Virus record (IMG/VR): IMGVR_UViG_3300012352_000177
Origin: an uncultured virus (IMG/VR IMGVR_UViG_3300012352_000177)
Lineage: Duplodnaviria > Heunggongvirae > Uroviricota > Caudoviricetes > Crassvirales
DNA: 20,000 nucleotides
Reading direction: 5' to 3' (one strand)
The position numbers and the translations under genes were made by a program. Of the stretch, positions 414-11,578 are shown one piece after another. Under the pieces are notes generated by a model. That model was not told where the DNA came from. It made no database searches and saw only the letters and a program-made list of their open reading frames with translations. The first letter of the stretch is position 1. Each line of letters opens with the position of its first letter.

Positions 414-3400
414 ATGAACGAAAAAGCAATTCAAGACGCATATAAACTATTCAAGCAATCGGGTTATACAAAGAGCATTAATGAATTCAGAGTGCTCATG
501 AGTTCTAATCAAAATGCTGTAAATGATGCATATAAATTATTTAAGCAATCGGGATATACAAAAAGCGTAGATGACTTTAAAGTGCTCATGGGTTCAGGAG
601 CTCAAGTAAAAAAAAAACCTACTTCAGAATTGGATTCCAAATCGGGAAAACTTACTTCGGTTTCTTCTACCAATCAGAAAAGTAACGGAGAGTATACTTT
701 CCCGGGACAAACGGGAGTTAAGTTCAGGAAAGAAAACAATCAGTGGTATAGGAAAGATCCAACTGCTGCTGACTACATTGTAATTAAGGAGCCTGCTAGA
801 GTTAAAAACCTAGAGAAAAACGCTTTACAAACTACATCAAATACTAAACCAAAGGGGCAAGTTGGTATGGAGCAAGGATATCTTAAAAAGGGATATCAAA
901 AGATTAACAACAAGTACTACGATGGTAAAGGTGAGATATTCACCAACTATCCCGGAAAGGAAGGAAAAGCTTATAGATTCAGTAATGGTCAATGGTTTGA
1001 ACAAAGCCAATATATTGACGCAAAGAATGTACTTGCTAATGGTGAAGATATGAGCGTTACTGTATTGAAGTCCCCTATCAAGGACCCAATGCGTATAAAC
1101 GCCCTAAACAAACAATTCAAGAAATGGGGTACTTCTGAGAATGGAGTATTATTAGGATTCCCGGGTAAAGAACAGAACGAATACCGAGTTGTAAATAATC
1201 AATGGCAGAGAAGATCTCCTGAGAATAAGACTTGGGTAAATGTTACAAACCAAAACTCTGTAACAGCACTTAACGACTACTTCAAGAAACAAGTTAAGTT
1301 TGAACCTGAAAAAGTAGATAATCTTAAGCAAGATAACATATATTCTAAAAACTTTGACACCAATATTAAATCAATTAATTCATCATTAATTGGTGGAGAA
1401 GAAGAGAATGCTGTAGAGGTTCTTAGAAAGAAATTTCCTGCAGCAAATGGATGGTTATTTGAAGAGACAGGTGCAGGAGATAGAATAATAATTACTGCCC
1501 CGAATGGTCAGAAAGAAACATTTACTCTTGACAATTGGACTTGGGATGATGATAAGAGAAATGCACAGCAAATGATTGGATGGATGCAGGCTAATAATTT
1601 GGCTCCATCTGAGAAAGAAACTTATGATAGATATAAGAAAGCTACAGTTGCTCAAGGAGAAGGAGCAAAAGAAGAAGTAGAGACAATAGTACTACCGGGT
1701 GGTGGTTCTTTAAATATACAGCAGCCTGTTCTTAATAAAATGTATTTGAAAAATGAAGAGGTTGCAAGGCAGGCAAGAAATGAATGGATGCCTATTAAAA
1801 GTCAAAAGGTTCAAGATATAAAGTCTCAATATTCTGCATATATATCTGATAAGGGTGCTTTAGATAAGCATACTCAAGAAAGAGCTCAGGCAGCTCTTGG
1901 CGCATTAGCAGAAGATAAAGAGACAATAAGACAAGTTAATGCATATCAAAATGATATCAAATATAATATTGAGTCATTTAATAAAAAACAAAAAGAAGCT
2001 GAGCTATACGTAACAAGCTTAAACTCAAAGTTTTTAAATGGAGAGATAACAAAAGAAGATTTTGATTCTCAGTTAGGATCTAAACAGAAAGAACTATTAG
2101 ATCAAGAACAGGAAATAAAGAATCAAATTAAGTCATCTGATAACTTAACTAGAACAGCTAATATGGCTGCAGCAGAGAATTATCTTGTTCAGGAAACAAA
2201 AGGTAGTCTTGGAGGTGGTTTAACACTTAGCTTTATAAAAGGAATGGTTTCGCCCTTGAGATTAATTGAGGGTGCAATGGGAATGGATACAAGTGCATCT
2301 GCATGGCATAAACAAGTTACTGATGCAATAGCTCCGATTTGGGATTATGAGACATCACTTGAATACCTTCGTTCTGAAGAAAGACCTGACCTATATAAAT
2401 CAGCGTTCTCAGTAGCTGAATCACTAGGGGCAATGGCTCCTTTAATTGCATCAGGTGGTGCTACTTTGCTTGGAGAAAGTGCTTTAGCTACAGGTACAAT
2501 GACTGCAGCTGCGTTCTATCCTATGTCTTATTATGAGATGAAGGATGAACTTGAGAATATTGATATGCCTGAGGAAGATAAGATTGCTTTATCATCCGTA
2601 TATGGATTGGTATCATCTGCATTTGAATCCATAGGTATGGAGTATGCAATGGGTAAGGTAAGTACTCCTATTCAAACAGCTATAAAGAGAAACATACTAA
2701 AGAATGTTGTAGGTAAAGAGATACCTAAAAATGCTTCAAAGGAATATATTGATGCTCTTGTAAAGAGTGAGACCAAGGCATACGTTGCAAATTTAGTTGC
2801 AAGCACTGCAGGATCAATGGCTGTTGAGGGCGGAACTGAAGCTCTTCAAAGTTTATCAGGTGCCGGTATGAAAGAAATATATGACCGGTATAAAGGGAAT
2901 AATGAGCTATTTAATAATGAAGGATTACAAGGTGTAATGAAAGAAGCCCTTTACGAAGGGTACCTTGGTGCATTAGGTGGTGGTATGACGCATAGCGTTT
3001 ACATAGCATCTGATGCGGTAAAACGTGGTAAAGCATTAAACAGCAAGGAGCTTGGAATGCTCATGATGGCTGCTAAGACAGATGGTATGAGTGAGACACT
3101 TATGACCAACTTAAAGTCAGATATGTTAAATGGTCGTATTACAAAGACAGAGGCTGAAGAGATTGCTAATAACTTTCAAATGGTTCGTGGCAACATGGAA
3201 CAGATGCCTGAGAACTTAACACCTGAAGCGCAGTCTGTATCATTGAGCCTAATGATGGAGCGCGACAGACTAGATAAACAAGTCGCAGGGAAAGACCCGA
3301 ATCTCGTTAAGCCGCAGACAACGCGTATTGCTGAGATAAATAATCGTTTACAACAAATATCAGAAGAAAATGCCGTTCAAGAGCAAGCAACAGGTGAAGT

Positions 3401-6400
3401 TCCTGTACAGTCAGAAACCGGAGTTAGCGAAGAAGTGGCGGGAGGAGTATCCCAACCAACCACTGAACAAGTTACCACAGAAGGTGAGCAAGCTAAAACA
3501 GAGGTCGCTAAACAAGAAGAAAAAGTAGCTCCAAGTACTGAAGCTGAGTTAGACTTCGAGGTTACACCTGAGATTGATCAAGAGGCTGTTAACCTTGAGA
3601 AGCTATTGGCTGATGAGGGTATTACTATTGAGACACCTGTTACTGAGGCTCCTATAACAGAAGAGACTGTTACTGAGGAAGCTCCTGTAGCAGAGGCTCC
3701 TTTAGCAGAGGCTCCTGTAGTAGAAGAGACTGTTACTGAAACGCCAAATGTAGAAGTAGGTGGTATTGTAAGAGGTTATGAAACCATATCAGGAGAAGAA
3801 GCTGTAGGTGACGTAAGATCAAAGCTACCTAATCAAAACAATGGTACAGTTGTAATAGAAGGTCAAGATGGAAATCAATATGCCGTTGCGTTCTCAAGAA
3901 AAGGATCAGACGGTAAAAATATCTTTGAGCAAGGAACAACAACTCAACGTCCGGGATACATATCAGCATCTGTTAAGATTGATGAGAATGCTACACCTGA
4001 GCAGATACAAGTCGCTCAACAGGAAGCTCAGAGAAATCTAGAGATGATTCTACCGGCCGTTGTAAACGGGTCGATAAACACACAAGCTGTGAACGAGATC
4101 ATGGCACAACAAGCTGTTGCCCAACCATCCGGAGAAACCGGACAGTTGCCGGTTGCTGAGACAGCTGTGGTTGAAGAAGCTCCTGTAACTGAGACAGCTC
4201 CTGTAATTGAAGCAGCTCCTGCTAAAAAGCCAAAAGCTCCTAAGAAGTTAACTAAGAAGGAAGTACTTCAGAAATATAATGATTATATCGACTCATTGAT
4301 TAAGGATGAGAAAGAGAGATCAGATAGAAGAATTGCTCAGCTTGCTAACCAAAGAAACTCAGCTACAGGTCAAAGACGTACTGAGTTAACTCAGGAGATG
4401 CAAGACTTAGAGTTTGCATTCAAAGCTAAGAAACGTGGCTTAGAGAGCAAGAAAGACGACAAGCAAGCTGCAATTGATTTCAATGAGCAAGGAAATATTA
4501 AGCCTGCTGACATATTATTCCAACTTGACTCTAGCCAAGAGTCAGCTGATAAAAAGAAAGAGCTACTAGAAACAGCTACCGCAATGATGGAAGAGGCTGA
4601 GAAGGAAGGATTCTCTGAGACAGCTTTTACAGCAGAACAACCTGAACCACAGGTTGATTTGATTACTATTGATATTAAAGAGAATACGGAGCTAGCAGAT
4701 AAGGTACAAAGAATGGGTCTTTCTGAGCTTATTGGAAAGAAAATTAACCTTGTAATGGCAGATCAACTAAAGGTTGACAAAGGTCTTATGGGTGGACCTT
4801 TCTTTCCTTTAATTAATAAGCTATTCGGAAAGGTTGCATGGGCATCTATTAATGACACAGCCGCCATAAAGATTATCAACGGAGCAATTAAGTCTGACTA
4901 TACCGTGGTATATAACATGAACCCGGAAGCTATTGACTCTAATGTAGCAGTGCTTGACTCATTTGAAAGAAAGATTCAAGAGCTACCTAAGAAAATGCAA
5001 CAGCAAGTATTCACTGAGATTACTGAGTACTTAAATGAGAAGAAGTTTGGGGAGAAGACAGAGGAGATACAAAAGATAGCATCTGAGTCAAAGAACCTAA
5101 ATGACTTATTGGCTAAGCTAAATGAGTTAGATGTAGATACCATTGCTGCGGTTGTTAAGAGTGTACTACCATCAAAGACTGTTAACGCAGGAACTAAGAT
5201 TGGTGCTACACTTCAGTCTCAAAATATTAGTATTGAGGACATCAGAGCAGAGAACATCGAACAGTTTGTAGCGGACCTTCCTGCCGGAGCTTTGACTATG
5301 GTATTGCAGGTAACTGACAAGAATGGTAAAAAGGTAACTAAGCAGACAGCAAGAGAGGCTCTTATGAGTAGAGAACAGCAAAAAGCTGAGGGTCTACCTA
5401 TACATAAAAACTATCCTGTATACATTAGAGGTAAGGCAGTTGGTATCTTAAAAGAGACCACTCCTTTTTGGAATGTATTTAAGGATGCAATTAACGAGAT
5501 AAACGTAAAAGTTGCAGGTGTTGTTAAGCACTCTACAGGGAGAAACATAACATCAAAAGAGGCTCTATCTAATGAGATGAGAAGCGCGTCAATGACTGCT
5601 TCACAGGCGAGAAAAGTTTCTGAGCCAACGGTTGATATGTATCAGAAGTTTGTAAGCGTATTGTCTCGATCTATTCCGGGAGTAAATGTTGTTACATCTC
5701 AGAAAGAGTTCAATGACCTACTAGACAACTTAAACACTCAAAAGCTATCTACTAAAAACCAAAAGGTATATGGTGCTGTGTACAAGGGTAAGATTTATTT
5801 GAATCCATCACTACAGAACTACAACACACCTATCCATGAGTTTGGACATATTTGGCTTAATGTAGCTAAGACAGCAAATAAAGATCTATACAATAAAGGT
5901 ATTGACCTTATTAAAGGGTCTGAATATGTTGATCAGATTAAAAACAATAAAGACTATCAGCGTGTAACAAACGAGATGGCTAAGAATGGTGCTACTCAAG
6001 AGGAGATTGACAACTACATCTATGAGGAGGCACTAGCTACTGCAATTGGTGACAAGGGTGAGTCATTTGTTAAAGCATCTCAAGCTCTAAAAGATTTTAA
6101 GAGTTGGTTAGATAAGCTATACTCATTTGTAAGAAAGCTAACGGGTATATCTAAGTACACGCCTGAGCAGTTACAAGACATATCACTTGATGAGTTCTTA
6201 CAGGCTGTATCTGTAGACTTATTATCCGGAGAGAAGCTATTTGATGTGACCGAGGGTAGTATGTCCGATGCGCTTCAGTTAATGTCCAAGAGCAATAACA
6301 TATCTAAAATTATTGATGCAGCTAGGAAGAACAACATATCTGACCAAGCCATAAAGTTGGTATTGGCAAGAAAAGGTTTTGCTGTTTCTGATATAAACGA

Positions 6401-9400
6401 TGCATTTGATACTGCTATTCAAGCTGAAGAGAATTTAGCTGAGACGCTTGAAGGATATTCTGAGTTAATGTCTAAGGTTGATGCCATGATTGCCCGTCAA
6501 CAAAAGAGAAATACAGAGCCATCTAAAATCTCTAAGAACGTGGATGCACTTGTAAGAAAATCTGATGTATATCAAAATGCTACAGACTTACAAAAGAAAG
6601 CAATTGAGGCTAATACAAAGGCTAAGACAGGTACTAGACAAACAGTTGCTCCATCATACGGTAGAATTTTAGGTGCTGTTGGAGATATTGAAAACTTAAC
6701 CTCAAAAGAAAAAATAGCTATTGCTAATAGAATAGCCAAGTTAGCTAAAGATGCATCTGCTAACTTAGCAGATGAGATTAAAGACTTAGTTAAGTCAGGT
6801 AAAATTTCAGCCAAACAAATGGTAAGTGTATTTAACAGATTGAAATCTGTTAACTTACTAAATGAGGTATCAGTGATGAAATTCATTGACTACATGGCTA
6901 AGGTCTTTAATAACGCTGAGTATGCTCAACAAGTAAGTACAGCTAAATCATTACAGTCAAAGGTTAAGAATAACGCTAAGACTAAACTTGGTATTGCTAA
7001 CGACTTGATTTCTGAGATCCTTATAATGGCTTCTATTAACCCATCATTGATCCCATCTAAGGTGTTTAATACGTACTTGGAGACTATGAATATGCTTGGG
7101 CAAAGAACGGCTGTTCTAAAGCTTGAGGAGAGGGGAGAGCTTACGCAAAAGGTTGCTGACATTTTAGACGCAGTTAACGAGGAGTTATCTGTAGCTAGTG
7201 AAATGGCTGAACAGTTTGACAACTACGAGCAAAAAGAATTAAATAAGGAGGGTAAAGTAGACTTTGCTAAGACGTTGAAAAAAATGATAGACGATGGCAC
7301 CATCACGGAGGCTCAAGCTGACATAATGCGTAAGTACAAAGCAGAGATAGTTGATAGTGAGTCTACAAAGAAGACTGAGGAAGAGCTTGCTGAAGAGAAG
7401 AAGACTTTGCTTGGAGTTCTTAAAAAAGACGTTATAACTGATGAGGCTATTAAAGATTTACCATCAAGACTAGAGAGAGAATTAGCTAACTCAATTAAAT
7501 CATTACTTAAGACTGATGCTGTTAACAGATTGAATAACACTACATTAAAGAACTTATTAAAGTTAGTTGACAATATCAATAATGGCTTTGTTCCTCACTA
7601 CGCAGAGAAAATGAAGGAGAGATTGAATGCTATTAATAGCTCATCTATATTATCATCTTCTGTTAAAAAAGCGAATCCACTTAGAGTAAGCACTGTATTA
7701 AGTAAGATTAAAGCATTCTTTACTGAGAAGTATACAAAAAGAGATTATGTTCTAGATATGGAACGTAGTATTTCTTTAGCAAATATTGATCAGGTTTTTG
7801 GTGATTTTAAGACAGAGAATATATCAGAGTCAATGTTTGAACCATCTAGAAAAGCACAAGCTGCATTTGAAACAATGTTTAAAAAGGCTCAAGATAAGTT
7901 AGAGAAAGCAAGAAGAGATGTGTTTATTTCTTTAGGTAAGAATTCAAATAAAACAATTATGTCTGATTTTAAGATAATGACATATTTGTTGCAACTTGAA
8001 AGTAATTCAAATCCTAACAGTAAGCAAGTAAACAATGCTGTTGACTTTATCAATGCAACAATAGCTCAAATTAATCGAAAAAAATCAGCTAACTATACAA
8101 ACAAAGATGCTAAGTTCTTAAATGAGATATTAGATAAATATACTAATCAAAGATCTTTAGAGAATAAGTATGGTAAGCCGTATGGAAAATTTACTTCAGA
8201 AGAAAAGGCTAGTGTTGAGTTGGATATTAATAAGATCTATAACTCATTTAACTCAGCAGAAAAAGCTTCTATTAAAACTATTCAGGAAGTAAATGACTCT
8301 ATGACTGAGAAGGCTGTATACACAGCAGGAATCATTCGAGGTGATAAGATTAATCCAATTGCTGATTATGTTCCTCATATTGTAACAAAAGACATTTTAC
8401 CGGGTGAAGAGATTTCAGGAGCAAGTGATGTAAATAACTTTAATAACTCAAGAAAGCCATCTACTAAGGCTAGTAACTTAGTAGAGCGTACGGGTACTGT
8501 CACAGCAATTAGCTTTGATCCATATAAATCTACATCTAATGCAACAAAGAATGTATTATTAGATTTCTATATGACTGAGCCTATCAGGACGGCAAGGATG
8601 ACAATCAATGAGACGCGTAAGAGACTAGAGGATGATGGTATTACTGAGCAACAAAATTTATTTTTAAATGCTATTGAAAATGCATTTGAGGAAGCTACAA
8701 AGAATGTATTACAAACTAACTTCCAACAAGACGAGATACTAAGTAAAGCGGCTAGTATTATTACAAAAGCCGGATATAGATCTTTGCTAGGAACAAGTAC
8801 AGTTCGTACTGCATCAGAGCTATTATCTAACATGAGTGCTGTTGCATTGATGGAAGGAAAAGCATTTCTAAAAGGAGTATCCAAAGAATTAAGGAAATAC
8901 ACCAATCCGGAAGAAGGACTTGAAATCATGATAAACAGTGGTTCAAATGCACCTCAACGAGTATTTGGAGGAAGTACTCAAGGTGGTATGTTTATTGATC
9001 CTGCTATTGCAAATAGCGCAGTTGGTATGAAAGATTCAGCTGCAAAAACAAAGCTAGAGAATACAATGCAAATGATCTATAATAGATCACTTAAGCACCC
9101 TGTTAATTGGATTGAGACTACATCAGATGTAATGATGTCAGCTCCTGATATTATTGTAACAAGACCAACATGGTTTGGTGCATATGCTAATGAGTTTAAG
9201 AAGGTAGCAGGAAAGGATGTAGACTTTGATAAGATTAAGGCTAACGATGAGGCGTACATGAATGAGAATAAGGATGCCATTGAAGCTGCAACAAAGAAAG
9301 CAGATAAGGCTGTATTCAAGTTGAGTGCTACGAATAATCCTTACATGGGTATATTGAGAAATAATATCTCACCTGACTCAAAAGGTATAGCTAAGACTAT

Positions 9401-10421
9401 TAAGATATTTGATAACTACTTGACTCGATTTACTATATATGAGTATACTAATGCTCGTACTGCAATCTATGCACTAGCAGGACAAGGTATGATCAGTAAG
9501 ACAGAGGCTACATTATTATTAGCAGGTGTAACTACTCGTATGATTACTTACTCATTACTATTAAAAGTATTAGGTAGTTCTTTATTAGGATTGTTTATGG
9601 GTGGAGATGATGAGGATGACGATAAGAGCTTCATGCAAAAACTTGGTCAGTCAGGAGCATCAGCAGCAACAACCTTATTACTTGGTAGAAACTTTGGTAA
9701 CATTATGAGAAATGCAATGGGATATGGTGCTGAGCAATTCAATAAGAACTATCTTACATTACTAAGAGAAGGTGACTACGATGCATACGAGGATGCTATT
9801 CAATACACGATATTGCCTCAAGAGAAGAAACAAGACATGGGTCAAGGTATGGAGCTATTTGATATATATCAAAATATGCTAGGACCTTCAGGACCTTTTA
9901 TAAAGTCACTTGATTACTCACTTAGAAAATTAACTGAGGCAGATCGAGTTGCTCCGAAAGCAAGTGACAGCGATGCTGTTAAGAAGAAAAGGATGGAGGC
10001 TGTAACTAGACAGCAGAGGGAGAGAAACATTCGTGTTCCATTAGAACTTACAGGTACGTTAGGATTTGTACCATTCTATAAAGATATAAGAAAGGTAGTC
10101 AATGAGATGATCTACGCTGATCTTAAGAAGTCTCTTAAAGAACAAGAGGCTAATAAGAAAAAGAAAGAGGAGATGTTGATGGGTTATGAGAGTAAGTCTG
10201 ACATGGAGGAAAACAATCCTAAGCTTTACGAAAGACTTTACGACAAAGGTGGTAAGTATTATGCTGAAGAGGAGATTAGGTTAGCTAATGAGAACCTAAA
10301 AAATCAACTAAGGGATATTGAAAAGAAACGTAAAAGCGGTACTATATCACCTTCGAAAGCTGCAACCTTAAAGAGAAGAGAGAAAAGAAAGGCAACTGTA
10401 AGGATAAGAAGAGCAAGATAA
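414..10421 (+). CDS. Giant (3335 aa) polyvalent phage protein, probable internal virion/DNA-ejection protein with a zincin-like metallopeptidase domain
   Basis: 10-kb uninterrupted ORF with an AT-rich start context. Motif LNP..NTPIHEFGHIW (HEFGH at 5835-5849) with downstream EEALA (6024-6038). Also Gly/Ala-rich amphipathic helices (~2200-3000), an acidic Pro/Glu/Thr linker and a hydrophobic segment near the C-terminus. The ejection role is inferred from size and architecture. Confidence 0.85.
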   Translation: MNEKAIQDAYKLFKQSGYTKSINEFRVLMSSNQNAVNDAYKLFKQSGYTKSVDDFKVLMGSGAQVKKKPTSELDSKSGKLTSVSSTNQKSNGEYTFPGQTGVKFRKENNQWYRKDPTAADYIVIKEPARVKNLEKNALQTTSNTKPKGQVGMEQGYLKKGYQKINNKYYDGKGEIFTNYPGKEGKAYRFSNGQWFEQSQYIDAKNVLANGEDMSVTVLKSPIKDPMRINALNKQFKKWGTSENGVLLGFPGKEQNEYRVVNNQWQRRSPENKTWVNVTNQNSVTALNDYFKKQVKFEPEKVDNLKQDNIYSKNFDTNIKSINSSLIGGEEENAVEVLRKKFPAANGWLFEETGAGDRIIITAPNGQKETFTLDNWTWDDDKRNAQQMIGWMQANNLAPSEKETYDRYKKATVAQGEGAKEEVETIVLPGGGSLNIQQPVLNKMYLKNEEVARQARNEWMPIKSQKVQDIKSQYSAYISDKGALDKHTQERAQAALGALAEDKETIRQVNAYQNDIKYNIESFNKKQKEAELYVTSLNSKFLNGEITKEDFDSQLGSKQKELLDQEQEIKNQIKSSDNLTRTANMAAAENYLVQETKGSLGGGLTLSFIKGMVSPLRLIEGAMGMDTSASAWHKQVTDAIAPIWDYETSLEYLRSEERPDLYKSAFSVAESLGAMAPLIASGGATLLGESALATGTMTAAAFYPMSYYEMKDELENIDMPEEDKIALSSVYGLVSSAFESIGMEYAMGKVSTPIQTAIKRNILKNVVGKEIPKNASKEYIDALVKSETKAYVANLVASTAGSMAVEGGTEALQSLSGAGMKEIYDRYKGNNELFNNEGLQGVMKEALYEGYLGALGGGMTHSVYIASDAVKRGKALNSKELGMLMMAAKTDGMSETLMTNLKSDMLNGRITKTEAEEIANNFQMVRGNMEQMPENLTPEAQSVSLSLMMERDRLDKQVAGKDPNLVKPQTTRIAEINNRLQQISEENAVQEQATGEVPVQSETGVSEEVAGGVSQPTTEQVTTEGEQAKTEVAKQEEKVAPSTEAELDFEVTPEIDQEAVNLEKLLADEGITIETPVTEAPITEETVTEEAPVAEAPLAEAPVVEETVTETPNVEVGGIVRGYETISGEEAVGDVRSKLPNQNNGTVVIEGQDGNQYAVAFSRKGSDGKNIFEQGTTTQRPGYISASVKIDENATPEQIQVAQQEAQRNLEMILPAVVNGSINTQAVNEIMAQQAVAQPSGETGQLPVAETAVVEEAPVTETAPVIEAAPAKKPKAPKKLTKKEVLQKYNDYIDSLIKDEKERSDRRIAQLANQRNSATGQRRTELTQEMQDLEFAFKAKKRGLESKKDDKQAAIDFNEQGNIKPADILFQLDSSQESADKKKELLETATAMMEEAEKEGFSETAFTAEQPEPQVDLITIDIKENTELADKVQRMGLSELIGKKINLVMADQLKVDKGLMGGPFFPLINKLFGKVAWASINDTAAIKIINGAIKSDYTVVYNMNPEAIDSNVAVLDSFERKIQELPKKMQQQVFTEITEYLNEKKFGEKTEEIQKIASESKNLNDLLAKLNELDVDTIAAVVKSVLPSKTVNAGTKIGATLQSQNISIEDIRAENIEQFVADLPAGALTMVLQVTDKNGKKVTKQTAREALMSREQQKAEGLPIHKNYPVYIRGKAVGILKETTPFWNVFKDAINEINVKVAGVVKHSTGRNITSKEALSNEMRSASMTASQARKVSEPTVDMYQKFVSVLSRSIPGVNVVTSQKEFNDLLDNLNTQKLSTKNQKVYGAVYKGKIYLNPSLQNYNTPIHEFGHIWLNVAKTANKDLYNKGIDLIKGSEYVDQIKNNKDYQRVTNEMAKNGATQEEIDNYIYEEALATAIGDKGESFVKASQALKDFKSWLDKLYSFVRKLTGISKYTPEQLQDISLDEFLQAVSVDLLSGEKLFDVTEGSMSDALQLMSKSNNISKIIDAARKNNISDQAIKLVLARKGFAVSDINDAFDTAIQAEENLAETLEGYSELMSKVDAMIARQQKRNTEPSKISKNVDALVRKSDVYQNATDLQKKAIEANTKAKTGTRQTVAPSYGRILGAVGDIENLTSKEKIAIANRIAKLAKDASANLADEIKDLVKSGKISAKQMVSVFNRLKSVNLLNEVSVMKFIDYMAKVFNNAEYAQQVSTAKSLQSKVKNNAKTKLGIANDLISEILIMASINPSLIPSKVFNTYLETMNMLGQRTAVLKLEERGELTQKVADILDAVNEELSVASEMAEQFDNYEQKELNKEGKVDFAKTLKKMIDDGTITEAQADIMRKYKAEIVDSESTKKTEEELAEEKKTLLGVLKKDVITDEAIKDLPSRLERELANSIKSLLKTDAVNRLNNTTLKNLLKLVDNINNGFVPHYAEKMKERLNAINSSSILSSSVKKANPLRVSTVLSKIKAFFTEKYTKRDYVLDMERSISLANIDQVFGDFKTENISESMFEPSRKAQAAFETMFKKAQDKLEKARRDVFISLGKNSNKTIMSDFKIMTYLLQLESNSNPNSKQVNNAVDFINATIAQINRKKSANYTNKDAKFLNEILDKYTNQRSLENKYGKPYGKFTSEEKASVELDINKIYNSFNSAEKASIKTIQEVNDSMTEKAVYTAGIIRGDKINPIADYVPHIVTKDILPGEEISGASDVNNFNNSRKPSTKASNLVERTGTVTAISFDPYKSTSNATKNVLLDFYMTEPIRTARMTINETRKRLEDDGITEQQNLFLNAIENAFEEATKNVLQTNFQQDEILSKAASIITKAGYRSLLGTSTVRTASELLSNMSAVALMEGKAFLKGVSKELRKYTNPEEGLEIMINSGSNAPQRVFGGSTQGGMFIDPAIANSAVGMKDSAAKTKLENTMQMIYNRSLKHPVNWIETTSDVMMSAPDIIVTRPTWFGAYANEFKKVAGKDVDFDKIKANDEAYMNENKDAIEAATKKADKAVFKLSATNNPYMGILRNNISPDSKGIAKTIKIFDNYLTRFTIYEYTNARTAIYALAGQGMISKTEATLLLAGVTTRMITYSLLLKVLGSSLLGLFMGGDDEDDDKSFMQKLGQSGASAATTLLLGRNFGNIMRNAMGYGAEQFNKNYLTLLREGDYDAYEDAIQYTILPQEKKQDMGQGMELFDIYQNMLGPSGPFIKSLDYSLRKLTEADRVAPKASDSDAVKKKRMEAVTRQQRERNIRVPLELTGTLGFVPFYKDIRKVVNEMIYADLKKSLKEQEANKKKKEEMLMGYESKSDMEENNPKLYERLYDKGGKYYAEEEIRLANENLKNQLRDIEKKRKSGTISPSKAATLKRREKRKATVRIRRAR
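426..590 (+). repeat. Tandem 30-codon duplication at the N-terminus of the giant protein
   Basis: AIQDAYKLFKQSGYTKSINEFRVLM (426-500) versus AVNDAYKLFKQSGYTKSVDDFKVLM (516-590), with many synonymous differences. Confidence 0.95.
608..685 (+). other. A10 slippery run plus -1 frame extension (candidate programmed frameshift or transcriptional slippage site)
   Basis: GT-AAAAAAAAAA-CC (A run 608-617). The -1 frame reads KKKTYFRIGFQIGKTYFGFFYQSEK* (TAA 683-685) and has no start codon after the upstream TAA at 578-580. Confidence 0.55.
699..1289 (+). repeat. Three diverged protein repeats [FY]PG..x.[FY]R..N[NG]QW ... L(N/E)
   Basis: FPGQTGVKFRKENNQW..IKEPARVKNLEK (699), YPGKEGKAYRFSNGQW..IKDPMRINALNKQFKK (948) and FPGKEQNEYRVVNNQW..VTALNDYFKK (1158). 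Confidence 0.85.
3370..3528 (+). CDS. Nested +1-frame small basic protein (52 aa) MPFKSKQQVKFLYSQKPELAKKWREEYPNQPLNKLPQKVSKLKQRSLNKKKK
   Basis: Hand translation: ATG at 3370 in an A-rich context (CAGAAGAAAATG), TAG at 3526-3528. It matches my recollection of a small phage hypothetical-protein pattern MPFKS..Q..(F/Y)LY...PE.A.KW......LP.KV. It is shorter than any ORF listed in the track. Confidence 0.75.
   Translation: MPFKSKQQVKFLYSQKPELAKKWREEYPNQPLNKLPQKVSKLKQRSLNKKKK
3681..3725 (+). repeat. 15-bp tandem repeats in the acidic linker (APVAE/APLAE/APVVE)
   Basis: GCTCCTGTAGCAGAG GCTCCTTTAGCAGAG GCTCCTGTAGTAGAA. GAAGAGACTGTTACTGA also occurs on both sides (3660, 3723). Confidence 0.9.
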
Positions 10422-10422
10422 G

Positions 10423-10444
10423 AGTAGTGCCGAAAGGCACTACT
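10423..10444. terminator. Hairpin at the convergent junction, probable bidirectional terminator
   Basis: Perfect 9-bp stem AGTAGTGCC-GAAA-GGCACTACT immediately after the giant gene stop, overlapping the TAG of the opposing gene. U-tracts are weak. Confidence 0.7.
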
Positions 10445-10853
10445 TAAACCTTATGTACTTAAACTCTTTTTGTTTGTCGTAGTAAGCCATTAGCTCATTA
10501 TCGTTAGTGGCTCCTTCTCTGCTAGGTCTACCACCCAACCGGATGGTTCCGTATATAGAGAATATCTTACCATAGATGATACCATCTTCGCATGACCATA
10601 TAACAACGGGGTTTAGTCTTTTATCAGATAACTTGTGTAGTTTACGTATGGCAATAGGGAGAGGATACGCGTCTCTCATGGTACGTATCCTTCCCTTTAC
10701 CTCGACATAAGCAATTAGTTTCTTGTCCTTATCAAAGACCTTATAGTCTACATCGTGTGGACCTAACTTCTCGTATGATCCTCCGAATATTGCAACAAAT
10801 GTTTCTATGGCTTTTTTCTCTCTTCGTCTGTCTTCTTCTGATTCAAAAGTCAT
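10440..10853 (-). CDS. PD-(D/E)xK-fold nuclease-like protein
   Basis: DVDY...YVEVKGR motif arrangement (D...ExK). Confidence 0.65.
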   Translation of the reverse strand: MTFESEEDRRREKKAIETFVAIFGGSYEKLGPHDVDYKVFDKDKKLIAYVEVKGRIRTMRDAYPLPIAIRKLHKLSDKRLNPVVIWSCEDGIIYGKIFSIYGTIRLGGRPSREGATNDNELMAYYDKQKEFKYIRFK

Positions 10854-11035: not shown

Positions 11036-11578
11036 TTATCTCATTACAAGACTATTAAAAAAATTATTCAACTTAGATTCCACAAAATCCTCTTGTCCGA
11101 CAGGTGTCCTATCGTTGATCAACCAAAGTATTTTTTGTAGTCTCTCGTACTTTAGTTTGTCACTTAAGTACTTTTGATTCTCCAAAGATAGCTTTTCTAT
11201 TTGTTTATGCAACACCATTGAGTTATTTATTATCTCAATCTCTTGACTTTCTATCAGCTTAGGTTGTATTTCTATAAACCTTTCTTTCAGGTATATATAC
11301 GTTTCGCGGAACTCTGTGTCACTACTAAATAACCAATCAAAGTTTTTCATGTAGTGAATAATAGTTGAATGATCTTTGCCAATTCTTCTACCAATAGACT
11401 TAAATGAATAGTTGTGTTCACGTGCAATCTTTGCATATATAATACGGGCATCGACAAGCTTTCTTTTCCTTGAGTCCCCAAATATATCTATATCTAGTTC
11501 ACCCTCTACTACGATGCGAATTGCATCTAATTCATCCTTTGGTTTCCTCACCTCTAAATACTTCTGTTCTGATTCCAT
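11036..11578 (-). CDS. DnaA C-terminal (domain IV)-like HTH DNA-binding protein
   Basis: SRKRKLVDARIIY...SFKSIGRRIGKDHSTIIHY matches the DnaA domain IV pattern (R..R...AR...Y...S...IG...G.DH(S/T)T.IH). No AAA+ domain is present. Confidence 0.8.
   Translation of the reverse strand: MESEQKYLEVRKPKDELDAIRIVVEGELDIDIFGDSRKRKLVDARIIYAKIAREHNYSFKSIGRRIGKDHSTIIHYMKNFDWLFSSDTEFRETYIYLKERFIEIQPKLIESQEIEIINNSMVLHKQIEKLSLENQKYLSDKLKYERLQKILWLINDRTPVGQEDFVESKLNNFFNSLVMR

What the first reader, a model, noticed from the sequence alone, without database searches (positions are those of the whole stretch)
3370..3528. Complete small basic gene nested out of frame inside the giant virion gene
Seen: the +1 frame of the 3335-aa gene holds ATG(3370)..TAG(3528), encoding MPFKSKQQVKFLYSQKPELAKKWREEYPNQPLNKLPQKVSKLKQRSLNKKKK, after an A-rich leader with A at -3. 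In the main frame this stretch is a low-complexity acidic linker (NAVQEQATGEVPVQSETGVSEEVAGG) using codons such as GCC, AGC, GTG, GCG and TCC that look atypical for the gene, as expected if another frame is constraining it. From memory, not a search: MPFKS..Q...LY...PE.A.KW...LP.KV resembles stand-alone small phage hypothetical proteins. Inference: a real overlapping gene that standard gene callers miss, possibly a DNA-binding capsid core protein or a partner of the giant protein.
Basis: partly seen in the sequence, partly recalled or inferred. Interest (0 to 1): 0.88.

Follow-up and report, generated by a model that had tools for sequence, protein, structure and literature searches.

The report
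Hidden small gene inside giant phage gene
A 52-codon gene for a very basic mini-protein sits in a shifted reading frame inside a 3335-codon phage virion gene; related phages preserve it as a protein, so it is a real gene that standard annotation misses.

Summary
ATG(3370)..TAG(3528) is a complete 52-codon ORF in the +1 frame of the 3335-codon gene 414..10421.

Length alone is no evidence, because +1-frame ORFs of 40 codons or more are common in such genes. Conservation is the evidence.
- Loci were chosen through a giant-frame domain about 1000 codons away. Of these 80, 67 carry the intact ORF, always in the +1 frame.
- 2 carry it as a free-standing gene just after the giant gene. 1 holds a remnant, 7 have none and 3 cannot be judged.
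- Variation falls on the small ORF's own third codon positions. On the same nucleotides its protein is 67% identical between loci, against 45% for the giant frame and 12-19% in the flanks.
- The start has the A-rich, unstructured, SD-less context used by Bacteroidota.
- The product belongs to a large, unnamed family: 3189 clusters, with only a weak link to phrog_1375.
- The model is a helical hairpin with a lysine-rich tail.

Free-standing relatives lie beside portal, terminase or giant genes, so I infer a virion-assembly or ejection role. That role is untested.

This scan already found the same nested gene in five other genomes.

The parts
3370..3528 (+). Nested gene: 52 codons plus TAG, in the +1 frame of the giant gene. 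It encodes a basic mini-protein (pI 10.5; 16 K+R, 3 D+E). Residues 1-40 form the conserved module and residues 41-52 a lysine-rich tail.
   Evidence: sequence; conservation and frame; AlphaFold2: helices 6-15 and 17-26; block-mean pLDDT 85-94 over residues 1-40; tail low; charge.
3340..3369 (+). Translation-initiation region of the nested gene, lying inside the giant ORF. It is A-rich, G-poor, has no Shine-Dalgarno sequence and is predicted to be unstructured.
   Evidence: window letters; across 126 unique contexts, A at -3 in 84%, -5 in 91%, -6 in 76%, -11/-12/-13 in 83/79/90%; an SD-like word in 9 of 126; mean MFE -1.75 against -6.82 kcal/mol for control ATGs; the same positions are positive determinants in Flavobacterium johnsoniae.
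3337..3339 (+). TAA in the nested gene's frame, ten codons upstream of its ATG. It closes that frame, so the product cannot be a long read-in from upstream.
   Evidence: In the 82 sequences the frame opens 0-24 codons before the ATG.
3369..3527 (+). The same bases read in the giant frame (residues 986-1038): an acidic, low-complexity linker rich in E, Q, V, A, G, T and P. It is poorly conserved as protein and lies between unrelated flanks.
   Evidence: giant-frame identity 0.446 here (a by-product of the other frame), 0.188 upstream and 0.124 downstream.
414..10421 (+). Enclosing giant gene, 3335 codons. Its C-terminal third matches phrog_32588 (function unknown). It has an HEFGH motif near residue 1810. 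Relatives are deposited as 'structural protein'.
   Evidence: phrog_32588, E 2e-58, residues 2421-3277; annotation of relatives as deposited.

Best explanation
Window 3370-3528 is a genuine protein-coding gene, wholly nested in the +1 frame of the giant virion-protein gene.

How it is made (inferred): there is no promoter of its own, so it is read from the giant gene's late mRNA. Ribosomes start internally at an A-rich, unstructured, Shine-Dalgarno-free site of the kind Bacteroidota use. They make a 52-residue protein and stop at TAG 3526-3528.

What it makes (shown by search and model): a member of a large, unnamed family of phage mini-proteins. These begin MPFKS.., fold as a two-helix hairpin (residues 6-26), continue with a short ..LP.KV segment and end in a disordered lysine-rich tail.

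Which frame is selected (shown): on this stretch selection acts on the small protein. The giant protein merely threads a tolerant acidic linker through the same bases.

History (inferred): the small-gene family is far wider than the giant-gene family, and some relatives keep it as a separate gene right behind the giant gene. So the small gene is the older partner, and at this site the giant frame is the accommodating one.

Function (inferred, about 40% by my estimate): a virion-assembly or ejection accessory. I picture a small polycationic protein that acts with the portal or packaging machinery and the giant internal protein, and may be packaged with the DNA. Nesting would then tie its synthesis to that of the giant protein.

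The confidence given (0.9) is for the claim that this is a real, independently initiated gene under purifying selection. It is not for the proposed function.
For: 1. Unbiased sample. 80 loci were fetched through a giant-frame domain (window 6498-7160) about 1000 codons downstream.
- 67 carry the intact ORF nested in the +1 frame, one of them in a split giant ORF.
- 2 carry it free-standing directly 3' of the giant stop (L113, L123; L123 with a TAATG overlap).
- 1 holds a remnant (L110), 7 have none and 3 are 5'-truncated.

2. Peptide-led sample. 80 of 80 loci, plus Flavobacterium phage elemoC and the window, have an intact ORF of 41-66 codons, always +1 of a giant ORF.

3. Codon periodicity follows the small ORF. 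Entropy at its positions 1/2/3 is 0.535/0.310/0.915 (76 unique sequences) and 0.671/0.521/0.967 in the unbiased set (57 sequences). Invariant residues such as P17, P29 and L36 carry synonymous variation.

4. On the same nucleotides, pairwise identity is 0.666 for the peptide against 0.446 for the giant frame. The peptide is higher in 1592 of 1596 pairs. Giant-frame flanks are 0.188 and 0.124.

5. A tblastn of 2999 giant residues against 50,697 phage records finds 3 records and no Elemovirus. The 52-aa peptide finds 68 Flavobacterium phage records.

6. Family. 7 of 7 word-sharing candidates are significant. A profile finds 3189 cluster representatives at E<=1e-3 and 176 at E<=1e-10. In the 150 listed, the module mostly starts at residue 1 of proteins of 46-100 aa.

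7. Start site: (see parts). ATG is present in all 82 sequences.

8. No own promoter. A TAnnTTTG word occurs in 3 of 127 upstream regions, against a background of 0.105 per 195 nt (the consensus itself is recalled).

9. Fold: mean pLDDT 82, helices 6-15 and 17-26.

10. Function lead. Of 19 neighbours with a named function around 44 free-standing homologues, 14 are morphogenesis genes: portal 7, large terminase 3, small terminase 1, scaffold 1, minor head/pilot 1, tail-fibre/decoration 1 (Pfam agrees on 12 small contigs).
- In L191 and L245 the homologue directly follows a 1373- or 1608-codon ORF. The L191 ORF and the window's giant share phrog_32588.

11. Metagenome contigs of other phages match the window only from 3364-3370 to about 3438.
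Against: - There is no direct evidence of translation or of the protein. An identical 151-base contig from an RNA library covers 3429-3579, but it may be DNA carry-over and says nothing about the frame.
- The gene is dispensable or replaceable in some relatives. 7 of 77 assessable loci lack it, and 4 of the records that hold them, at least 90% complete, have no copy anywhere. One locus has a decayed remnant.
- One database protein (P0010, 1075 aa) carries the peptide fused in frame to the C-terminus of an N-terminal giant-type segment. Read-in products therefore exist in at least one contig, unless that is an indel error.
- The family has no Pfam model and no solved structure. The functional reading rests on neighbourhood and charge only.
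- 5 of the 19 named neighbours are not morphogenesis genes, and 66 of the 85 neighbours have no named function.
- The sequences are related, so the statistics overstate independence.
- The tree used for the history is unrooted.
Confidence: 0.9

Rival explanations
1. Chance ORF. The +1 frame is open and looks conserved only because the giant frame is conserved and its G-starting, A-rich codons happen to avoid +1 stops.
For: +1-frame ORFs of this length are common: 364 of 40 codons or more in 957 kb of related giant genes, and four others in the window's gene. An acidic, GAA-rich frame read +1 gives lysines automatically.
Against: - The giant frame is less conserved than the peptide on the same bases, and the flanks are nearly unrelated.
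- Variability peaks at the giant frame's first codon position and is lowest at its third.
- The four control ORFs hit 0 of 246 loci.
- Free-standing homologues exist where no other frame is open.
- 3189 family clusters were found.
Confidence: 0.01
2. Recoding product. Ribosomes translating the giant gene shift +1 near 3340-3370 and end at 3528, making a truncated N-terminal giant fragment with a basic tail. Alternatively, ribosomes that start at the nested ATG shift -1 in the lysine tail into the giant frame.
For: P0010 (1075 aa) is an N-terminal giant-type segment fused in frame to the peptide. The leader and tail are A-rich, which favours slippage.
Against: - A stop in the peptide frame lies 0-24 codons before the ATG. 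In three loci (L015, L051, L056) the frame opens at the ATG itself.
- The ATG is kept in all 82 sequences, and the listed homologues mostly begin at this methionine.
- X_XXY_YYZ heptamers occur in only 31 of 124 nested ORFs, with no conserved word or place.
- The free-standing forms need no shift.
Confidence: 0.04
3. The conserved island is a nucleic-acid element (an RNA structure, packaging site or regulatory site) and not a protein.
For: It is a sharply bounded island of nucleotide conservation with raised G+C (0.495 against 0.373). Other phages' contigs match only this stretch.
Against: - There is three-base periodicity with synonymous change at invariant residues.
- The start region is predicted to be unusually unstructured.
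- Protein-level homologues are found at DNA identities too low for blastn: nothing was found with 1401 bases in 'distant' mode, while the peptide hits.
- The fold is modelled with confidence.
Confidence: 0.02
4. It is a real gene, but the product is not a virion or assembly factor. It could be a host-directed or regulatory factor instead: a small polycation that binds host RNA, ribosomes or DNA after late expression, or a lysis-timing accessory.
For: - It is extremely basic with a disordered tail.
- In Streptomyces phage FlowerPower the homologue gp48 lies between a 'peptidase' and the holin at the end of the late operon.
- Some neighbours are not structural: GroEL-like, methyltransferase/ParB, RusA.
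- The gene is lost in one clade without loss of the giant gene.
Against: - 14 of 19 named neighbours are head, packaging, connector or tail genes.
- The gene sits repeatedly in or behind giant virion genes.
- It has no transmembrane segment or signal peptide (sequence).
Confidence: 0.3

Closest known systems
Lambda Rz/Rz1 two-component spanin genes (embedded architecture)
   Same: A complete small gene lies wholly inside the +1 frame of a larger phage gene, and gene callers routinely miss it. The pair also occurs in other arrangements in relatives: embedded, overlapped or separated for spanins (Kongari et al. 2018, PMC6139136, passages read: 182, 228 and 118 systems, with o-spanins often unannotated). 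Here the arrangements are nested or directly downstream.
   Different: This is not a spanin. It has no lipoprotein signal, no transmembrane domain and no lysis-cassette context in this window. The host gene is a 3335-codon virion gene, and the overlap falls in a linker and not in a functional domain. The small gene also belongs to a family that is mostly free-standing and much wider than the host gene's family.
PHROG family phrog_1375 (function unknown)
   Same: It is the only library family that the module matches repeatedly. Residues 3-45 align to profile positions 17-65 of 70. E-values are 8.9e-6 for P0100, 8.4e-5 to 7e-4 for several others, 0.002 for P0007 and 0.24 for the window's protein.
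   Different: The window's own match is not significant, and the elemoC peptide and the two free-standing forms give no match. The profile has 16 positions before the MPFKS start. No function is attached to the family.
Classical overprinted genes of small viruses (phiX174-type overlaps; reviewed in PMC8227390, abstract seen in the listing)
   Same: Two proteins are read from the same bases in different frames. One partner is biased in composition and disorder-prone.
   Different: In overprinting the nested frame is the young one. Here the nested frame is the old, widely distributed and better conserved one, and the enclosing frame is the poorly conserved one at this site. The genome is also not small: the relatives' records are about 60 kb.
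Small basic virion proteins encoded next to the portal gene in T7-like phages, such as T7 gp6.7 (recalled, no call)
   Same: A small, basic product encoded in the head-morphogenesis block. This is the kind of role I propose.
   Different: No sequence or fold relation was tested or found. It is an analogy only.

Membership tests
MPFKS mini-protein family (defined here by profile A4/A5; weak link to phrog_1375) | A significant profile or sequence match over the roughly 40-residue module | tested here: met
   7 hits at E 3e-13 to 3e-8 in a 5.8-billion-sequence database; 3189 representatives at E<=1e-3. The window's protein is row 1 of both profiles.
MPFKS mini-protein family (defined here by profile A4/A5; weak link to phrog_1375) | The module starts at the initiator methionine (M-P-F-K-S) and keeps W23 and the L35-P36 motif | tested here: met
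   P2, Q8, L35 and P36 are invariant, and M1, F3, S5 and W23 are at 90% or more in 86 sequences. The window has all of them.
MPFKS mini-protein family (defined here by profile A4/A5; weak link to phrog_1375) | Two-helix hairpin followed by a basic tail | tested here: met
   (model only: mean pLDDT 82, helices 6-15 and 17-26); the best BFVD matches are uncharacterised 44-aa phage proteins, prob 1.00, 36-44% identity.
phrog_1375 | A significant hmmscan match of the window's own protein | tested here: inconclusive
   E 0.24 over residues 3-26 only. Relatives reach 8.9e-6.
Embedded out-of-frame phage gene pair (architecture class as in Rz/Rz1) | A complete ORF with its own start and stop inside another gene, in a different frame of the same strand | tested here: met
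Embedded out-of-frame phage gene pair (architecture class as in Rz/Rz1) | Both frames maintained across relatives | tested here: met
   the giant frame is open for hundreds to thousands of codons on both sides wherever the locus reaches, and the nested ORF is intact in 67 of 80 unbiased loci.
Two-component spanin (Rz1-like o-spanin) | Lipoprotein signal with a lipobox cysteine, and a partner with an N-terminal transmembrane domain | tested here: not met
   the window's protein has no cysteine and no hydrophobic segment. Gravy is -1.53.
Pfam DUF3008 (PF11450), a resemblance I recalled and the Atlas hinted at | A match to the Pfam model | tested here: not met
   no Pfam family covers the module for the window's protein, the nested and free-standing forms at E<=10, or 18 family members at E<=1. 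HMMER's filters drop most matches above about 0.1. The Atlas gives only a 0.85 lead, to a cluster where 15% of members carry it.
Programmed ribosomal frameshift site | A conserved slippery heptamer at a fixed place, and an open acceptor frame upstream | tested here: not met
   heptamers in 31 of 124, with varied words; the acceptor frame is closed 0-24 codons before the ATG.

The most novel reading that the evidence does not exclude
A giant virion gene has swallowed an older, free-standing gene. Within this family of giant genes the nested state looks ancestral, with one later move to just behind the gene and at least two losses. This is overprinting in reverse: the enclosing frame is the newcomer at that site.

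The swallowed gene would encode a widespread, so far unnamed head or ejection accessory of tailed phages (thousands of clusters). It would be a polycationic hairpin protein that works with the portal and packaging machinery and the giant internal protein, and that travels with the DNA. Nesting would fix its dose to that of the giant protein through internal initiation on one mRNA.
Probability: 0.3. Interest if true: 0.8.

Novelty: new member of a known kind. Interest (0 to 1): 0.6.

Why it matters
- It adds a missing gene to a whole group of Bacteroidota-type phages. That covers at least 124 distinct nested copies in the loci fetched here and 68 cultured Flavobacterium phage records, whose deposited annotation shows only the giant gene at this place.
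- It ties that gene to a family of thousands of unnamed phage mini-proteins that sit in head-morphogenesis blocks. One experiment in a cultured Elemovirus could therefore name a very common unknown.
- It is a clean natural case in which the nested frame, not the enclosing one, carries the selection. That makes it useful for testing methods that detect overlapping genes, and for asking how a giant modular protein tolerates a foreign constraint in a linker.
- It gives a testable example of internal, Shine-Dalgarno-free initiation inside a long ORF in Bacteroidota.
- Nested phage genes as such are known, and this scan had already met this one in five other genomes. So it is a solid addition and not a new principle.

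Tried and rejected
- blastn ('distant') of window 2800-4200 against phages: no match.
- Pfam on the peptide, its relatives and 18 family members: no family covers the module.
- Foldseek against PDB: no match at E<=0.001, best E 8.3.
- VIA-align against 48,161 chains: best Z 2.4.
- PDB sequence profile: only designed repeat proteins (Cake, Scone) with 0 passing stretches, which I read as an artefact.
- ESM Atlas: only 'hypothetical protein' clusters of Uroviricota.
- The small contigs of 4.4-7 kb might have been Microviridae, with the module as a J-like DNA-binding protein. Rejected: they carry terminase and portal genes of tailed phages.
- The bodies of long proteins that carry the module at their N-terminus might have been homologous to the giant gene. 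There was no blastp hit at E<=1e-4 against 289 giant ORFs. P0100 against the giant gave only E 0.06-0.2.
- -1 frameshift from the lysine tail into the giant frame: no conserved slippery site.
- An own promoter upstream: none by the recalled TAnnTTTG word.
- The first alignment for the unbiased scan was too divergent for the tool. A six-sequence alignment worked.
- No whole genome is held for this window, and there are no earlier notes on this genome.
- Giant gene residues 1650-2000 (HEFGH region) against PDB sequences: nothing below E 0.014.
- RNA-library contigs cover little (5 and 8 of 30 bins) and cannot show transcription or frame.
- Complex prediction was not run. With 3335 residues to tile and one job of 1000 residues, a miss would say nothing.

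Full report
**1. The observation**

The window holds an ORF from ATG 3370 to TAG 3526-3528. It translates to MPFKSKQQVKFLYSQKPELAKKWREEYPNQPLNKLPQKVSKLKQRSLNKKKK.

It lies inside the 3335-codon ORF 414..10421 on the same strand, offset by +1. In the giant frame the stretch reads as an acidic, low-complexity linker...EENAVQEQATGEVPVQSETGVSEEVAGGVSQPTTEQ.... A TAA at 3337-3339 closes the small frame ten codons before its ATG.

The rest of the window is phage-like. It carries a PDDEXK nuclease, a DnaA-type HTH protein, an SNF2-type helicase and a primase-helicase on the opposite strand.

**2. Is it more than chance?**

Length is not evidence.
- The same giant gene has four other +1-frame ORFs of 40-63 codons.
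- 124 related giant genes hold 364 other +1 ATG-ORFs of 40 codons or more in 957 kb.
- With a +1 stop frequency of 0.0744 per codon, 41 open codons have a probability of 0.042 at any one site.

Conservation decides the matter. The four control ORFs find nothing in 246 fetched loci, while the nested ORF finds 194. Most of those loci were chosen with the peptide, so the fair sample is described in section 4.

**3. First relatives**

A tblastn of the 52-aa peptide against 50,697 phage records hit 81 records at E<=10, 68 of them Flavobacterium phages of host BAL314, genus Elemovirus.
- In MT497067.1 the match lies inside the 3694-codon 'structural protein' gene and again in its +1 frame. It is a complete 42-codon ORF, and 23 of 43 aligned positions are identical to the window's peptide.
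- blastn of 1401 bases around the site found nothing in that collection.
- A tblastn of 2999 residues of the giant protein found only three records, none an Elemovirus.
- One of those three, MW202828.1, also has the nested ORF in the +1 frame of its 3859-codon gene. Tenacibaculum phage Gundel_1, which shares only one domain, has none.

The small protein is therefore far better conserved than the gene that contains it.

**4. Two collections from viral contigs**

(a) Peptide-led.
- In 80 of 80, plus elemoC and the window, the ORF is intact at 41-66 codons.
- It is always embedded in an ORF open for 760 to more than 4200 codons, whose frame is the peptide frame +2. That makes the peptide +1 of the giant frame.
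- Two loci lack Pro2 but keep the ATG.

(b) Unbiased. The query was a giant-frame domain, window 6498-7160, about 1000 codons downstream. There were 288 pattern matches, 130 were confirmed and 80 were kept.

A peptide HMM run over six-frame ORFs gave this result:

| State | Loci | Notes |
|---|---|---|
| Intact, nested in the +1 frame | 67 | L134 sits in a giant ORF split into two frames |
| Free-standing, directly after the giant stop | 2 | L113, L123 |
| Remnant | 1 | L110: N-terminal half and ATG lost |
| No copy | 7 | none even at E<50 |
| Cannot be judged | 3 | 5'-truncated |

In L123 the giant gene's stop overlaps the small gene's ATG as TAATG, and no other frame is open across the free-standing genes.

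Searching the whole records showed that four of the 'none' cases are genomes at least 90% complete, with no copy anywhere. The two free-standing cases served as positive controls.

**5. Which frame is under selection?**

- In a codon alignment of 76 unique nested ORFs, entropy per peptide codon position 1/2/3 is 0.535/0.310/0.915. In the unbiased set (56 unique plus the window) it is 0.671/0.521/0.967.
- The giant frame's third position is the peptide's second, so it is the least variable. That is the reverse of what a gene under its own selection shows.
- Invariant residues carry synonymous variation. For example, Leu36 uses both CTN and TTR codons.
- On identical nucleotides, mean pairwise identity is 0.666 for the peptide and 0.446 for the giant frame. 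The peptide is higher in 1592 of 1596 pairs. The giant frame's 45-residue flanks are 0.188 and 0.124 identical.
- G+C rises to 0.495 in the nested ORF against 0.373 in its flanks.
- In freshwater metagenomes, contigs of other phages align to the window only from 3364-3370 to about 3438, with A-rich but unrelated sequence before.

The sequences are related, so these figures overstate independence. The direction of each is still unambiguous.

**6. How it is expressed (inferred)**

- Across 126 unique contexts the leader is A-rich and G-poor. A stands at -3 (84%), -2 (87%), -5 (91%), -6 (76%) and -11/-12/-13 (83/79/90%). An SD-like word occurs in 9 of 126.
- These positions match those reported as positive determinants of initiation in Flavobacterium johnsoniae: A at -3, -6, -12 and -13, and an A-run from -14 to -11. 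Its mRNAs lack SD sequences (Baez et al. 2019, PMC6847099; abstract and section 15 read).
- The 50 bases around the nested start are predicted to be nearly unstructured. Mean MFE is -1.75 kcal/mol, against -6.82 for other ATGs of the same genes, and only 6% of the controls are as open.
- A Bacteroidetes-type -7 word (TAnnTTTG, recalled) is present upstream in 3 of 127 loci, which is below background.

I therefore infer internal initiation on the giant gene's mRNA.

Frameshift models fit poorly.
- The acceptor frame is closed 0-24 codons before the ATG.
- The ATG is kept in all 82 sequences.
- In the listed homologues the module mostly starts at this methionine.
- Slippery heptamers occur in 31 of 124, without a conserved place.

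One counter-example needs explaining. P0010 (1075 aa) is an N-terminal giant-type segment, with E 5e-36 to the N-part of the L009 giant. It is fused in frame to the peptide. I could not see its DNA.

**7. What the product is**

- It has pI 10.5, 16 K+R against 3 D+E, and no hydrophobic segment.
- Seven called metagenome proteins of 42-53 aa match at E 3e-13 to 3e-8.
- A profile of 30 nested and free-standing forms, searched against 1.84 billion cluster representatives, gave 3189 hits at E<=1e-3 and 176 at E<=1e-10.
- In the 150 listed hits the module mostly starts at residue 1 of proteins of 46-100 aa. In some it heads longer, low-complexity proteins.
- No Pfam family covers it.
- phrog_1375 (function unknown) matches relatives at up to 8.9e-6, but the window's protein only at 0.24.
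- AlphaFold2 with 86 sequences gives mean pLDDT 82, helices 6-15 and 17-26, and a disordered tail.
- It has no solved relative. The nearest predicted viral structures are uncharacterised 44-aa phage proteins.
- One subfamily has two cysteines where the window's subfamily has Leu12 and Ala20. This would fit a contact between the two helices, but I did not measure it.

**8. Function (inferred)**

It yielded 44 distinct small free-standing genes and 15 more nested ones, again all +1 of a giant ORF.
- Of 85 flanking ORFs, 19 have a named function, and 14 of those are morphogenesis genes. They are portal 7, large terminase 3, small terminase 1, scaffold 1, minor head/pilot 1 and tail-fibre/decoration 1. 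The other five are GroEL-like, methyltransferase/ParB, RusA and two phosphoesterases.
- Pfam on twelve small contigs agrees.
- In L191 and L245 the gene directly follows a 1373- or 1608-codon ORF at the end of an operon. The L191 ORF and the window's giant both match phrog_32588.
- In Streptomyces phage FlowerPower the homologue gp48 lies between a 'peptidase' and the holin, at the end of the late operon.

I read this as a virion-assembly or ejection accessory, possibly packaged with the DNA. I put that at about 40%. The main alternative is a host-directed or regulatory polycation, at about 30%.

**9. History (inferred)**

I built a tree of the giant-frame domain with 73 distinct rows. Identical rows were merged, and no row was dropped for being short.
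- Nested forms fall on both sides of the midpoint.
- The two downstream forms make a pair (support 93), sister to nested L119 and L142, whose peptides resemble theirs.
- Six of the seven 'none' forms sit in one clade (support 99), with L118 apart.
- The tree needs at least three state changes.

The tree is unrooted. If the midpoint root is near the truth, nesting is ancestral in this giant-gene family, with one relocation and at least two losses. All nested cases share one frame relation, which also fits a single origin.

The small family reaches far beyond these phages. So the small gene predates the overlap, and at this site the giant frame is the accommodating one.

**10. Comparison and novelty**

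The architecture is that of lambda Rz/Rz1, an embedded +1 gene that is often unannotated and also occurs separated. The comparison rests on Kongari et al. 2018 (PMC6139136, passages read).

The product has none of a spanin's defining signals, so it works like an embedded pair but is not a spanin.

My searches of the held library found no paper on this gene. I could not see supplements of phage-genome papers or subscription journals.

The scan's own earlier notes report the same nested gene in five other genomes, with the same reading. They are not independent evidence, and I tested each claim again here.

My verdict: the gene is real (about 0.9). It is a new member of a known kind of arrangement. 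Its function is open.

Noticed in passing
window 414-600 (giant protein residues 4-58): The N-terminus of the giant protein has two tandem copies of a unit of about 29 residues (..NAVNDAYKLFKQSGYTKS..F.VLM..). Pfam gives only a sub-threshold DUF3364 match at residues 29-52.
   Followed up: no
window ~5830-5850 (giant protein near residue 1810): An HEFGH word, a zinc-peptidase-like HExxH, lies in the only region that matches cultured phages' 'structural proteins': residues 1664-2002 to MW202828.1 and 1787-1939 to Tenacibaculum phage Gundel_1. No PDB sequence relative falls below E 0.014.
   Followed up: partly
L001 5608 (MT497067.1, Flavobacterium phage elemoC): A second, truncated copy of the start of the nested gene (..KKMPFKSKKLMK, then a stop) lies about 400 bases upstream of the complete one in the same +1 frame. 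In the giant frame this is a repeat of ..QEDAVQKQ...
   Followed up: no
L110 8078-8200; clade L138, L139, L140, L149, L155, L163; L118: Natural losses of the nested gene. One is a remnant lacking its N-terminal half and ATG. One clade of giant genes, plus one separate locus (L118), has no copy, and four of the records that hold them, at least 90% complete, have none anywhere.
   Followed up: yes
P0010 (1075 aa, metagenome protein): The peptide is fused in frame to the C-terminus of an N-terminal giant-type segment. This is either a natural split-and-fused variant or a one-base assembly error in the A-rich leader.
   Followed up: partly
alignment A4, columns for residues 12 and 20 of the window's peptide: A subfamily of nested peptides (MPFKNKQQMKACYAQNNPKWDC..) has two conserved cysteines where the window's subfamily has Leu and Ala. 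This may be a paired change between the two predicted helices.
   Followed up: no
window 11036-11578 (-) and 10440-10853 (-): A 180-aa protein with a DnaA C-terminal HTH domain (E 5e-11) and a phage PDDEXK_14 nuclease (E 1e-6) lie directly convergent to the end of the giant gene.
   Followed up: no
L187 6001-9456 (contig of 195 kb) and P0100, P0150, P0144, P0127: The MPFKS module also heads long proteins of 418-1152 aa that have Gly/Ala-rich or membrane-like bodies. P0100's C-terminal end resembles the giant protein's (hydrophobic run, then an acidic DDEDDD-like run) only at E 0.2.
   Followed up: partly
window 2400-4400 in coded runs X1-X15: The stretch, or parts of it, is held by freshwater, lake, estuary and seawater metagenomes of many studies. 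Only two runs hold half or more of its sampled words, and only X2, X4, X17 and X20 were laid.
   Followed up: partly
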